Shown: piece after piece, positions 24,173-61,152 of the stretch | How the letters are laid out: each line of letters starts with the position of its first letter | Position numbering within the stretch: position 1 is the stretch's first letter | NCBI GenBank assembly: GCA_964016885.1 | Contig: OZ024742.1 | Coordinates: 238,576,001-238,640,000 of the forward strand | Reading direction: 5' to 3' | DNA length: 64,000 nt | DNA from: Eledone cirrhosa | Lineage: Eukaryota | The notes under the pieces: model-generated | Database searches by the model: none | Seen by the model: the letters and a program-made list of their open reading frames with translations, nothing else | Told to the model about the DNA's origin: nothing | Position numbers and translations under genes: made by a program

Positions 24173-24304
24173 GATGTATATATATATATGTGTGTATGTA
24201 TGTGTATATGTATGTGTGTGTGTATGTATGTGTATATGTATGTATGTGTGTGTATATGTATGTGTGTGTGTATATATATGCATGTATGTGTGTGTGTGTA
24301 TACA

Positions 24305-26033
24305 CATCATCATCATCATCATCATCATCATACGTCCGCTTTTCCCTGCTTGCAAAGGTGGGACGGGTCTTATTCAGCACAGCATCTGTCCACTTATCAC
24401 GGTCCTTCATCATCTCCACCGTGAACTTCAGCGATCTGAGGTCTGTTCTCACCATCTCCGCCCATGTTTTTCGTGGTCTACTTCTACCACGTCTTCCTTC
24501 AACTGGCATTTCCTGGCACTTCTTCACCCATCGGTCAACCTCCATGCGCATCACATGTCGATACCATCTCAGTCTCCTCTCTCGCACACTACATTCTATC
24601 CCTCTCAGACACAGTTTCTCTGTCAGTATATTCATGCTGGGTCGTTCACCCACATTGACATTGCACATCCAACGGAGCATGCTTGCCTCATTTCTCTCCT
24701 CTGCAGTTGCTGCCCATGTCTCACTACCATGCAGCATCGTGCTCCTCACACAGGCATCATATAACCGGCCTTTCGTAAGCAGGGAGAAAACCTTCATCAA
24801 CAGAGGAAGCAGCTCCCTGAACTTCTTCCAACCCGTCCTTATTCTAGATACTATGGCCTCGGAACACACTCCTCTCATGCTAACCTGATCTCCTAGGTAC
24901 CACCACTTCTATAGCACCCGCCTGCATTTGAAAATTGTGTCTATCAATGTGACTTCTACTGCCTAATTTCCCTGTACATCTACTGCATATGTATTTCTCC
25001 ATACCTGTTGTGTACCCAGGATCTGCATTTTGTGCATTTTGTAGAATTTATGCCAGTTCCTTTTCTGCATATCGAACATGGCCATTTCCCTGACGGAATC
25101 AGTTTTGTCCTCTTAGCTAGGTTCACTCTCAATCCTCTTGCTTCCAACTGCTGTTTCCATAGCCAGAATTTATTCTCTAGCTCCGCTACTGATTCTGCTA
25201 TAAGAACCAGATCGTCAGCATAGAGAAGTTCCCATGGACAACCAGTCTTAAACTCATCTGTTATGGCTTGGCGGACTATAATGAACAAGAGCGGGCTGAG
25301 GACTGAACCTTGATGTACTCCTACTTGTATCTGGAATTCCTCACTAAACTCTATTCCTACGCTAACTTTACTGACAGCACCTCTGTACAAAGTTTGCACT
25401 GTCCTCACAAGCCATTCCTCAACACCTAGTTTCCTTAGGGACCACCAGATGACAGATCGGGGTACCCTATCAAAGGCCTTCTCTAGGTCAACAAAGGCTA
25501 AGTATAGTGGCTTATTCTTCTCTAAGAACCTCTCTTGTAATTGTCTCACCAAGAAGAGGGCATCTGTTGTACTTTTCCCAGGTACAAAACCAAACTGCAT
25601 CTCATCTAGTTTGACCCTTTGTGCTAATATCCTTTCTGCCACTTTCATAACCTGATCCATCAGTTTTATACCCCTATAACTGCTCCTCTCCAGAACATCC
25701 CCTTTACCTTTGTAGCAATTTATGAGAATACTGCCGCACCAGTCTTTGGGTATGACACCACCATATATAGCCCAATTGATGATGCGTGCAACCAGTTTAG
25801 TTCCTACGTCCCCTGATGCCTTCAGCATCTCAGCAACTATCATCAATGGTCCAGCAGCCTTATCATTTTTTATTTCCTTAATCGCCTCTTGGACCCTATA
25901 TTCGTCAATCTCCAGAGCTGGTCCCTCTATTGGATCTACTGAGACTAATTTCTCTCTCTTCCATTCGTTCTCCACATTCATCACTCTCTCGTCAAGACAT
26001 TTCCAGGATTCCTTTTTCTGATCATTTGTGACA
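24305..26033 (-). mobile_element. RTE-A LINE, 5'-truncated, with internal deletions
   Basis: RT motifs [22 protein letters not shown] and LYADD, with a (GAT)n tail. Close homologue of 32791-34610. Confidence 0.95.
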
Positions 26034-26913
26034 TGTGTATGTGTGTATATATATATGTATGTGTATGTGTGTATATATGTATGTGTGTGTGTATATATGT
26101 ATGTGTATATATATATATGTGTGTGTGTATATATGTGTGGGTATATGTGTGCGTATATATATATGTGTGCGTGTGTATATAGATGTATGTGTGTGCGTGT
26201 ATATATGTGTGGATATATATATGTGTATATGTGTGGATATATATGTGTATATGTGTGGATATATATATGTGTATATGTGTGGATATATATGTGTATATGT
26301 GTGGATATATATGTGTATATGTGTGGATATATATATGTATATGTGTGGATATATATATGTATATGTGTGGATATATATATGTATATGTGTGGATATATAT
26401 ATGTATATGTGTGGATATATATATGTATATGTGTGGATATATATATGTATATGTGTGGATATATATATGTATATGTGTGGATATATATATGTGTATGTGG
26501 ATATATGTGTATGTGTATATATGTATATGTATGTGTATGTGTATATATATATGTGTATGTGTATATATATATATGTGTATGTGTATATATATATATGTGT
26601 ATGTGTATATATATATATGTGTATGTGTATATATATATGTGTATGTGTGTATATATATATGTGTATGTGTATATATATATATGTGTGTGTATATATATAT
26701 ATGTGTATGTGTATATATATATGTGTATGTGTATATATATATGTGTATGTGTATATATATATGTGTATGTGTATATATATATGTGTATGTGTATATATAT
26801 ATATGTGTATGTGTATATATATATATGTGTATGTGTATATATATATATGTGTATGTGTATATATATATATGTGTATGTGTATATATATATATGTATGTGT
26901 ATATATATGTGTA
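26034..26913. repeat. TA/TG compound microsatellite, including a ~20-bp GTGGATATATATATGTATAT unit
   Basis: Direct reading of the sequence. Confidence 0.95.
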
Positions 26914-27626
26914 TCATCATCATCATCAGGTTTAGCGTCCGTGTTCCACGCTTGCATGGGTTTGGACGGGGGTTTTCCCACTTGAGGCAAGAGTGGTTGT
27001 CTTGCTCGCATAGGACTGTCTGGCGGGTTTTCTACAGTTGGATGCCCTTCCTAACACCAACCACATTTACAGTGTGGGGCTGGGAGGTTTTTACCGTGTT
27101 GCCTACACGGCCACATTTACAGCGTGGACTGTGTGTTTTTTGTCGTGACACCTACACGATCTCATTTGTTTCGGCCTGGATGTTGTGGGACCAACATAAC
27201 TTTACATTGAAAGGGGCGGTGTGGGTGGGGTGGAGGTGGTGGGACGGGGGTGTGTTTTGATAGAGATGCCTACTGACTGTAGTAGGTTTTTACTTTGTAT
27301 TTAGGTAAGGCGGGTCTTCTCTATTACTGAGTACCGCCAAAGGTCTCGGTCCAGTGACATTGTCTTGGAGAGGTGTAAGCGTGTGAGGTCGGAATTTATC
27401 AGCTCGTCCCATGTTTTTCTGTGTCTGCCTACTCCGTGGCTACCGTCTATCTTTATTGCCCTGCACTTTGTTATACAGCTGTCGTCTTTCATGCGCATCA
27501 CGTGACCGTACCAACGTAGCCTTCTCTCGAGTAAACATCTGATCCCTCTTATTTCTAATTTTTTCCTTAGTTCGTTTATGCTTTGCCGTTCACGTATATT
27601 ACTATTGCACATCCAGCGGAGCATGC
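26914..27626 (-). mobile_element. RTE-C 3' fragment with ~390-bp 3' UTR
   Basis: MLRWMCNS...[13 protein letters not shown]-terminus, stop at 27301, and a (GAT)n tail. Confidence 0.9.
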
Positions 27627-59731: not shown

Positions 59732-60080
59732 CAGTGCCCCGCAAAAGTTTACAACACATTAGGGAAAATGCGGTTTTAGGTATTTTTAATAAAGTTAGGG
59801 TAATGAAAATTTAACTACTGATAGAACATATAATGAGGCATTTAATGATACAATCATATTTTTTTTTAAATAACAAGGAAATAACTCATGAAGAAAAATC
59901 AATATTTTTATAACGCAAAAGTTTACAACACATTTTATATTTATCGCTTTTTTTTCAAGAAAATTCTTAAATTTTCAGATTTAAAATTCAGTAGAATGTT
60001 CTAGATTAGGTTTAAGGTAACTTCTAAGGACTATTAAAAACATTACGTCATTATTTGTCTGACAACCATCATGTAAACAT
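59732..60080 (+). mobile_element. Tc1/mariner IR/DR-type terminal repeat (solo end)
   Basis: TA|CAGTG start and a 21-bp direct repeat CGCAAAAGTTTACAACACATT at 59740 and 59914. Confidence 0.8.
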
Positions 60081-60455
60081 TGATATATATGTGTGTATAT
60101 ATATATATATATGTGTGTATATATATATATATATGTGTGTATATATATATATGTGTGTATATATATATATGTGTGTGTGTATATATATATATGTGTGTGT
60201 GTGTATATATATGTGTGTATATATATGTGTGTGTATATATATGTGTGTATATATATATGTGTGTGTATATATATGTGTATATATATATGTGTATATATAT
60301 GTGTGTATATATGTGTGTATATGTGTGTGTATATATGTGTGTGTATATATATGTGTGTGTATATATATATATGTGTATGTATATATATATATATATGTGT
60401 ATATATATATATATATATGTGTATGTATATATATATATATATATATATGTGTATA

Positions 60456-60753
60456 CTCTTTTACTCTTTTACCTGTTTCAGCCATCCGGCTCAGGCCATG
60501 CTGGGGCACCGCCCTTGTTGCTACACATTTTATCTCCAGCCTGTATAGGTTGGCCACTGGTGTAGGAGGGAGTTTGTTGCTGTGGGCTCATCCGGGATCC
60601 TGGATAACAAGGTGTCGAGATGTTTCTTAAAGACACCCACCTCCACATCATGCAAGTCTCGCAGATGCCTCGGCAGCCAGTTGAAGAGTTGAAGTCCCGC
60701 TGATGCCTCGGCAGCCAGTTGAAGAGTTGAGGGCCCTTGAATCCCAGGCTATT
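60456..60753 (-). mobile_element. CR1-like LINE 3' end
   Basis: [48 protein letters not shown], a short internal duplication, and a (TAAAAGAG)2 tail. Confidence 0.75.
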
Positions 60754-61152
60754 GTATATATATATATATATATATATATATATATATATATATATATATA
60801 TATATATATGTGTGTGTATGTATATATATATATATGTGTGTATGTATATATATATATATGTGTGTGTATGTATATATATATATATGTGTGTGTATGTATA
60901 TATATATATATATATATATATGTGTATGTATATATATATATATATGTGTATGTATATATATATATATATGTGTATGTATATATATATATATGTGTATGTA
61001 TATATATATATATATATACATGTAAAGTTATATTTAAAATTGTTGGGTTACAACTAGTAAATATTTATAACTGATATAAAAGCACTCGACAAATACTTGG
61101 AGTATATTTACAATATTAAATAAATGGAAAACTATATTTATAAAACCATATT

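What the first reader, a model, noticed from the sequence alone, without database searches (positions are those of the whole stretch)
24173..61020. Microsatellite 'landing field': retroelements repeatedly inserted into giant TA arrays
More than 15 insertions (RTE-A, B and C, SINEs, the bipartite element, a CR1 end) are embedded in (TA)n/(TATG)n. Their 5' truncation points fall at AT/CAT/ACA microhomologies with the array (26033, 27626, 39478, 41409, 42503, 49231, 50793), and RTE 3' (GAT)n tails run into the array. This suggests endonuclease preference for TA repeats or cruciforms, and a feedback loop in which insertion splits and seeds arrays that then expand. That would be a safe-harbour niche and a local genome-expansion mechanism (inference).
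Basis: partly seen in the sequence, partly recalled or inferred. Interest (0 to 1): 0.75.

Follow-up and report, generated by a model that had tools for sequence, protein, structure and literature searches.

The report
Jumping genes crowd giant TA repeat
Several unrelated jumping genes sit inside one giant TA repeat, likely because they prefer TA repeats genome-wide and this one is a very large target; the surprise is a young LINE family found almost only in TA repeats, often far longer ones than chance predicts.

Summary
The array field is in the assembly: 64% of 24173-61020 is (TA)/(TG) array, all with TG on the + strand, and it runs on about 25 kb past the window. The insertion count is inflated: a 3.7-kb near-exact tandem duplication repeats six pieces, leaving about 15 distinct pieces, about 12 directly in TA. 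TA preference holds genome-wide. RTE-A/B/C and their SINE run into TA at 47 of 124 3' ends (background 5.3%). The bipartite RTE element is in TA/TATG at 19 of 19 other copies. RTE density here fits target size (about 5 expected, 8-9 seen, p=0.12). Window microhomologies average 1 base, near chance. Slow feedback seeding is unsupported: 5 of 15 long background arrays touch no detectable repeat, and older CR1-like ends have shorter arrays. New: a young CR1-like LINE runs into TA arrays at 32 of 32 copies, 18 of them 500 bp or longer (10% expected), which fits either break-prone long targets or expansion at insertion. The scan noted RTE pile-ups in TA elsewhere in this genome before.

The parts
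24172..61023 (+). Compound (TA)n/(TG)/(TATG) array field; 18 blocks of 60 bp or more, all with TG on +; local higher-order units of about 14-28 bp; continues to about 25 kb beyond the window end
24302..26033 (-). RTE-A, older 5'-truncated copy (89% to nearest fetched copy), (GAT)n tail at left end
26914..27627 (-). RTE-C 5'-truncated copy (98.9% to nearest)
32791..35450 (-). RTE-A young copy (99.7% to nearest); 743-aa open frame with RVT_1 and a PHD finger; 5' end lost in the gap
35451..35650 (.). 200-N scaffold gap
39477..41048 (+). RTE-B 5'-truncated young copy (99.5%), RVT_1 and PHD finger, internal deletion in the 3' UTR
41135..41409 (-). RTE-C 3' fragment, tail to tail with RTE-B across a 98-bp array
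41784..41883 (.). 33-bp hairpin-type palindrome, present twice at 67-bp period; origin unknown
   Evidence: no match in the 1-Mb sample
42180..42502 (-). SINE with RTE-type 3' end and (GAT)n tail, 5'-truncated
45403..46012 (+). Bipartite non-autonomous element; its 3' part is the C-terminal end of an RTE-type ORF; fixed ends; other copies lie in (TA)n/(TATG)n
46024..46125 (+). 94-bp RTE-A 3' end plus tail; the same composite with the bipartite element recurs at L222
48139..48449 (-). Near full-length SINE copy
48450..49226 (-). RTE-C copy whose tail abuts the SINE head (not TA); 3 extra bases at its 5' junction
49706..50329 (.). Composite: abundant TA-flanked element with inverted arms (49706-50070), SINE 3' fragment (50065-50165), DNA-transposon fragment (50169-50329)
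   Evidence: no Rfam match at a useful score
50402..50794 (-). RTE-B 3' fragment (90% to nearest)
51513..55294 (+). Near-exact tandem copy of 47785-51568 (period 3728/3726); recent duplication or assembly error
59731..60078 (+). End of a DNA transposon starting CAGTG after TA (Tc1/mariner-like; label recalled)
60455..60748 (-). 3' end of a young CR1-like LINE with an 8-bp tail repeat; the family is almost confined to TA arrays

Best explanation
The field is a single-polarity TA/TG microsatellite domain of about 65 kb holding insertions of several unrelated TA-preferring mobile elements, and it likely grew first, by slippage and local tandem copying, and then collected insertions because it is a very large target. 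Inferred mechanism: each LINE endonuclease would nick at TA steps, the (GAT)n or 8-bp RNA tail would pair with the exposed AT to prime reverse transcription, and the 5' end would join by 0-3 matching bases. Insertions split the array and each piece keeps drifting to its own repeat unit. Strength differs by family: loose for RTE-A/B/C and the SINE (about 40%), near-strict for the bipartite element and the CR1-like LINE. The CR1-like family also favours very long arrays, likely because long interrupted TA tracts are nicked or break more often than their length alone predicts.
For: SHOWN. Polarity: all 18 window blocks and 9 further blocks downstream carry TG on + while inserts lie on both strands; background neighbours share polarity in 80 of 128 pairs (rough p 5e-4, blocks not independent). 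The same array unit flanks the B/C/SINE cluster on both sides. Enrichment: strict TA start at RTE-A 11/29, B 4/11, C 12/29, SINE 9/28, unselected young copies 11/27, total 47/124 vs 923/17,400 background. After any AT the background is 22.7% vs 97/211 seen (that pool includes loci fetched around TA-targeted elements, so it is biased upward). Bipartite element: 19/19 other copies in TA/TATG by eye, 17/19 by the strict rule; 14/14 complete 3' ends in the unselected 1 Mb followed by ATAT or ATGT (several are in one locus). CR1-like: 3' array in 18/20 and 32/32 new copies. Pre-existing target: SINE 5'/3' concordance p=0.03; a 28-bp duplicated TA tract at L270. Density: 4.9 expected vs 8-9 seen, P(>=8)=0.12. 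Long arrays without these elements: 13 of 15; without any detected repeat: 5 of 15. Intact endonuclease and RT exist in young copies. KNOWN: RTE Tn-TA signature (PMC6007223, PMC13295347); long interrupted TA repeats form cruciforms and break in human cells (PMC12018271).
Against: Young CR1-like copies sit in arrays much longer than length-weighting predicts (3' side 500 bp or more in 18/32 vs 10%, bootstrap upper limit 18%; 1 kb or more in 12/32 vs 4.2%), which plain proportional targeting does not explain. The share of background arrays touching these families rises only from 9% to 13-17% with length, flatter than proportional targeting predicts unless long arrays are short-lived. Some CR1-like copies have different units or opposite polarity on their two sides (for example L269). 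Array units differ across some window insertions. No empty allele was seen. The background is 100-110 stretches and can miss rare giant fields. Nicking was not assayed.
Confidence: 0.68

Rival explanations
1. Insertion-coupled expansion: the CR1-like LINE lands in a short TA seed and the seed is amplified to hundreds or thousands of bases on both sides during integration or its repair, then shrinks with age. Insertions would then build the giant arrays.
For: 18/32 young copies have 500 bp or more on the 3' side vs 10% expected; 11/20 have 1 kb or more in total vs 8.4% of array bases; older ends 0/7. Flanking arrays often repeat one rare variant periodically from the junction. Precedent in DNA transposons: maize TAFTA expands 6-8 bp of TA to (TA)50 per side (as reported in PMC5907723, passage).
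Against: Long arrays occur without these elements; the window holds one CR1-like end (and one more downstream) for about 65 kb of one polarity; several young copies have short flanks, 8 of 32 under 120 bp; a visible 28-bp duplication shows a pre-existing tract at one site.
Confidence: 0.17
2. Break capture: long TA tracts extrude cruciforms, host nucleases cut them, and all retroelements are patched in without using their own endonuclease.
For: Unrelated families converge on TA; long-array bias; interrupted TA repeats form cruciforms and are cut in human cells (PMC12018271 passages).
Against: Family-specific strengths (about 40% vs near 100%) and the TATG preference of the bipartite element point to element-encoded choice; RTE ends outside arrays still start with AT in 35/114 vs 15.8%; perfect TA runs are short (window median 5 units; CR1 junction median 3.5); 3' ends and tails are intact.
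Confidence: 0.08
3. One reading: each insertion seeds an array that later expands and attracts the next insertion.
For: Sub-arrays have their own units; target duplications add some TA.
Against: One polarity across both insert orientations; older copies have shorter arrays (longest 163 bp among 50 unselected RTE/SINE ends; CR1-like 0/7); long arrays are not enriched for these inserts.
Confidence: 0.04
4. The giant arrays or their lengths are assembly artefacts.
Against: Arrays carry ordered, drifting variant units rather than noise; independent contigs cross a CR1-like 5' junction, and reads of another individual run from the CR1-like 3' end into TA-rich sequence.
Confidence: 0.03

Closest known systems
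RTE-clade LINEs and SINEs with the Tn-TA insertion signature (PMC6007223 passages; PMC13295347 abstract, Results, Discussion)
   Same: RTE-type single-ORF elements with microsatellite tails; cleavage at TA; tail-target pairing proposed.
   Different: There the signal is a TA step about 10 bases after a T stretch in ordinary DNA; here about 40% of copies lie in TA repeat arrays. The T stretch was not tested here.
Microsatellite-targeting APE-type non-LTR elements Waldo (ACAY), Mino (AC), Kibi (TC), Koshi (TTC), and Dong (TAA) (PMC3812793 section 5 part 1; PMC4494074 passages)
   Same: Insertion into pre-existing microsatellites; the bipartite element and the CR1-like LINE reach similar strictness.
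   Different: No (TA)n target and no RTE or CR1-group member appear in those lists; no bias for kilobase arrays is described in the passages read.
SaTar/Micron/TAFTA Mutator-like elements of guayule, rice and maize (PMC5907723 part 1 of 6 and passages)
   Same: Linear, mostly non-nested arrays of unrelated elements joined by (TA)n; expansion of the TA flank at insertion reported for TAFTA.
   Different: DNA transposons of plants, short TA spacers; here mostly retroelements and multi-kilobase polarised arrays.
Naiad Penelope-like elements (PMC8557442 passages)
   Same: (TA)n is the preferred target; present in cephalopods.
   Different: GIY-YIG endonuclease, not APE; not the RTE or CR1-like elements studied here.
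Transposon-carried microsatellite expansion in penaeid shrimp (PMC7878876 passages) and RTE-born microsatellites in Lepidoptera (PMC2887409 abstract)
   Same: Genome-wide TE-microsatellite association, proposed as a route to repeat expansion.
   Different: There the repeat is carried in or made from the element's tail; here the TA lies on both sides, differs between copies and is not tied to element orientation.

Membership tests
RTE clade LINE (A, B, C) | Single ORF with APE endonuclease then reverse transcriptase, no ORF1 | tested here: met
   For B: 1040-aa frame in a full-length copy just downstream, Exo_endo_phos at its N-terminus, about 30 bases of leader, RVT_1 in the window copy. A: RVT_1, 5' end lost. 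C: not examined.
RTE clade LINE (A, B, C) | Microsatellite-like 3' tail | tested here: met
   (GAT)n tails
RTE clade LINE (A, B, C) | RT phylogeny within RTE | not tested
   No labelled reference set on hand; clade name rests on structure and recalled motifs
RTE Tn-TA signature | TA at the cleavage site | tested here: met
   AT follows the tail in 110/211 ends; 35/114 outside arrays vs 15.8%
RTE Tn-TA signature | T stretch about 10 bases upstream of the target duplication | not tested
   Too few unambiguous duplications
Target-specific non-LTR element (more than 20% of flanks in one sequence type; criterion of PMC4494074) | Over 20% of flanks are the target | tested here: met
   A-D 47/124; bipartite 17/19 strict; CR1-like 18/20 and 32/32
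Bipartite non-autonomous RTE (PMC5786205) | 3' part from the LINE's 3' end, fixed short length | tested here: met
   606-bp copies with fixed ends; 3' part matches a longer copy reading as an RTE-type C-terminus (motif reading recalled)
Bipartite non-autonomous RTE (PMC5786205) | 5' part from the partner LINE's 5' UTR | not tested
   Full-length partner not fetched; no Rfam ribozyme match
CR1-group LINE | ORF2 with APE endonuclease and RT, preceded by an ORF1 region; short tandem 3' tail | tested here: met
   953-aa frame with Exo_endo_phos and RVT_1, upstream frames without Pfam match, 8-bp tail repeat
CR1-group LINE | RT phylogeny within the CR1 group | not tested
   Homologue hits carry no clade names; solved relatives are only L1 and R2; label rests on recalled motifs
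Zenon subgroup (PMC13343379 passages) | Poly-A tail and no ORF1 | tested here: not met
   8-bp repeat tail and about 1.1 kb upstream of ORF2 with open frames
SaTar arrays | Non-autonomous Mutator-like elements with terminal inverted repeats | tested here: not met
   Inserts are mainly non-LTR retroelements; the field works like a SaTar array but is not one

The most novel reading that the evidence does not exclude
A young CR1-like LINE is a near-strict (TA)n-targeting retrotransposon that also builds its target: integration amplifies a short TA seed into kilobase arrays on both sides, making it an engine of giant microsatellites in this genome.
Probability: 0.17. Interest if true: 0.8.

Novelty: new variant of a known kind. 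Interest (0 to 1): 0.4.

Why it matters
Pile-ups of mobile elements in TA repeats are known, and here the RTE part needs no more than a large target. What could matter is the CR1-like family: ten literature searches showed no CR1-group element with (TA)n specificity, though Repbase and subscription journals were not searchable. It has an intact enzyme in young copies, so its specificity can be assayed. Its bias for kilobase arrays makes one question directly testable with empty alleles: do retrotransposons find giant TA arrays or make them? (AT)n exceeds 10% of a squid genome (PMC9068888 passage).

Tried and rejected
Empty allele of a short-flank CR1-like copy (L272): none listed in 4 runs from at most 2 samples; contigs cross its 5' junction. 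Runs with small shares were not used. Ribozyme in the bipartite element or in 49690-50340: no Rfam match near gathering score. ARAGORN found no tRNA in the window. Target duplications of SINE copies: 14 of 28 gave a match of 6 bases or more, mostly ambiguous TA. CORRECTIONS: the binomial test for CR1-like totals used a miscount (12/19); the true count is 11/20, and the statistics quoted come. One search used a wrong query (another element) and is discarded; one search replaces it. Searches ended in script errors (one search printed 17 of 20 loci). Two array masks were used (strict; wider), each against its own background. Orientation of RTE/SINE tails relative to array polarity was mixed (41 TG, 23 CA, 33 pure), so tail-derived arrays were rejected. 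PDB and protein searches did not resolve clade. Supplements were not read; those of PMC4494074 and PMC8557442 may list more targets.
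Full report
OBSERVATION. The window lies in a 3.0-Gb animal genome (G000), likely an octopod cephalopod; that rests on recalled repeat motifs and earlier scan notes and was not tested. Between 24173 and 61020, 64% of bases are alternating TA/TG array, with blocks up to 5.2 kb. In 100 evenly spaced 10-kb stretches the figure is 7.2%, with no block of 2 kb or more by the same mask. All 18 blocks of 60 bp or more have TG on the + strand. The field continues for about 25 kb past the window with 9 more blocks of the same polarity, up to 7.1 kb; the 50 kb before the window and the stretches after the field are array-poor, 0-2%. 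The arrays consist of short units that repeat and drift along the array, as expected from slippage and local tandem copying (inference).

COUNT. About 15 distinct pieces remain, about 12 directly in TA. One RTE-C tail abuts a SINE head, and the bipartite element plus a 94-bp RTE-A end recur as a unit elsewhere. A 200-N gap cuts the long RTE-A copy. Three inserts lie on + and nine on -, yet array polarity never changes, which fits one ancestral array split by insertions rather than arrays grown from tails.

MICROHOMOLOGY. At the seven named junctions the overlap with the array, read, is 1, 1, 1, 2, 0, 0 and 2 bases, close to the simulated 0.88. Over 60 array-flanked 5' junctions in all loci (one is the window duplicate) the mean is 1.67, with 2 or more bases in 29 against 20% expected. 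The effect is real but small, of the kind usual for LINE 5' ends (recalled).

GENOME-WIDE PREFERENCE. 3' ends running straight into alternating TA: RTE-A 11 of 29, RTE-B 4 of 11, RTE-C 12 of 29, SINE 9 of 28, and 11 of 27 young copies in the unselected 1 Mb, against 5.3% of random positions; 5 of 23 older or shorter matches in that sample. Part of this is pairing of the tail's AT with any AT: the background after AT is 22.7%, against 97 of 211 in a pool that is biased towards TA loci. SINE copies with TA at the 5' side tend to have it at the 3' side, so the TA was there first. The bipartite element is stricter: 19 of 19 other copies lie in TA or TATG, and so do 14 of 14 complete 3' ends in the unselected sample. 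The element at 49706-50070 and the DNA-transposon end are also TA-flanked.

HOTSPOT OR LARGE TARGET. From 16 TA-flanked RTE/SINE ends per 72 kb of background array, 4.9 are expected in the window's non-duplicated array bases; 8-9 are seen (P of 8 or more = 0.12). No special hotspot is needed.

FEEDBACK LOOP. Of 15 background arrays of 500 bp or more, 2 abut a window family, 10 abut some repeat and 5 abut none detected. Arrays beside 50 unselected RTE/SINE ends reach at most 163 bp. Older or shorter CR1-like ends have arrays of 24 bp or more in 2 of 7 cases and none of 500 bp, against 32 and 18 of 32 for the youngest (Fisher p 4e-5 and 0.01). Arrays therefore appear to shrink or be interrupted with age rather than grow after insertion (inference from a small old set).

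THE CR1-LIKE FAMILY. The end at 60455-60748 belongs to a young family whose copies are 96-99.6% identical to the reference copy L280, with an intact 953-aa endonuclease-RT frame. In the first 20 loci, 18 have a 3' array and 11 have 1 kb or more on the two sides together, against 8.4% of background array bases. I then took the 32 hits that were new (8 of 40 overlapped the first set); they were chosen only by identity of the last 291 bases, and all lie on contigs C1 and C2. All 32 run into an array: 23 of 200 bp or more, 18 of 500 bp or more, 12 of 1 kb or more, against 27%, 10% and 4.2% for random array positions in 110 stretches; the bootstrap upper limit for 500 bp is 18%. Each copy has its own array unit and both polarities occur, so the arrays are not carried from one donor. 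Perfect TA runs at the junction are short (median 3.5 units). Either long interrupted arrays are better targets than their length predicts, or the array is amplified at insertion. Only empty alleles can decide, and the one attempt found none.

MECHANISM. Shown: TA flanks, two-sidedness, family-specific strength, small 5' overlaps, single polarity, intact enzymes. Inferred: nicking at TA steps by the element's endonuclease, priming by tail-target pairing, prior growth of the array, and higher nicking or breakage of long arrays. Untested: cruciforms, safe-harbour value.

LITERATURE. Seen: PMC6007223 passages; PMC13295347 abstract, Results, Discussion; PMC13282606 part 1 of 3; PMC5907723 part 1 of 6 and passages; passages of PMC8557442, PMC3124438, PMC7878876, PMC9068888, PMC4494074, PMC5786205, PMC13343379, PMC6740152, PMC12018271; PMC2887409 abstract; PMC3812793 passages and section 5 part 1. 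RTE preference for TA, microsatellite-targeting LINEs, TA-linked arrays of unrelated elements and (TA)n-targeting Penelope-like elements are all in print. Ten searches showed no CR1-group element with (TA)n specificity or a long-array bias; Repbase was not available. Earlier notes of this scan on other DNA of this genome reached the same reading for RTE pile-ups; none of those listed described the CR1-like bias.

VERDICT. Observation partly confirmed; TA targeting supported; hotspot and slow feedback not supported. The field itself is an extreme instance of a known kind. The near-strict, long-array-biased CR1-like family and the strict bipartite RTE element make it a new variant. Interest 0.4.

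Noticed in passing
L286-L287, about 7.6-11.1 kb beyond the window end (G000:C3): Full-length young RTE-B copy with a 1040-aa open frame inside the same array field; source of an intact endonuclease for assays.
   Followed up: partly
window 32807-35038 and 39479-40363: RTE-A and RTE-B proteins carry a PHD-finger match just after the reverse transcriptase domain.
   Followed up: no
window 41784-41883: A 33-bp palindrome with a 1-base loop sits twice in the array; no match in the 1-Mb sample; could be a transposon footprint or a hairpin-repair scar.
   Followed up: partly
window 45403-46125 and L222: Bipartite element, a short TA spacer and a 94-bp RTE-A end recur together at another locus, suggesting a composite that moves as one unit.
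   Followed up: partly
window 49706-50070: Abundant element with inverted arms, nearly always TA-flanked in the 1-Mb sample; may be the Penelope-mobilised ribozyme repeat of earlier scan notes; not tested.
   Followed up: partly
window 61649-64000: Young element (98% to L123) with a repeated terminal segment and a 383-aa frame without Pfam match; Penelope-like by recall; it interrupts the same array field.
   Followed up: partly
L263, L264, L266, L268, L277 (5' flanks of CR1-like copies): Short tracts of opposite array polarity lie next to several 5' junctions, as fold-back synthesis would leave; mixed arrays are common in background (100 of 413), so not established.
   Followed up: no
L009 and L010: Two RTE-A copies at different loci are 5'-truncated at the same TATA inside the element, both against a TA array.
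   Followed up: no
L150, L028, L171, window 41036-41156: Tail-to-tail RTE pairs separated by a few TA units recur, showing re-use of the same short TA site.
   Followed up: no
window 22366-24171: Old, degenerate LINE of another family directly borders the first array.
   Followed up: no
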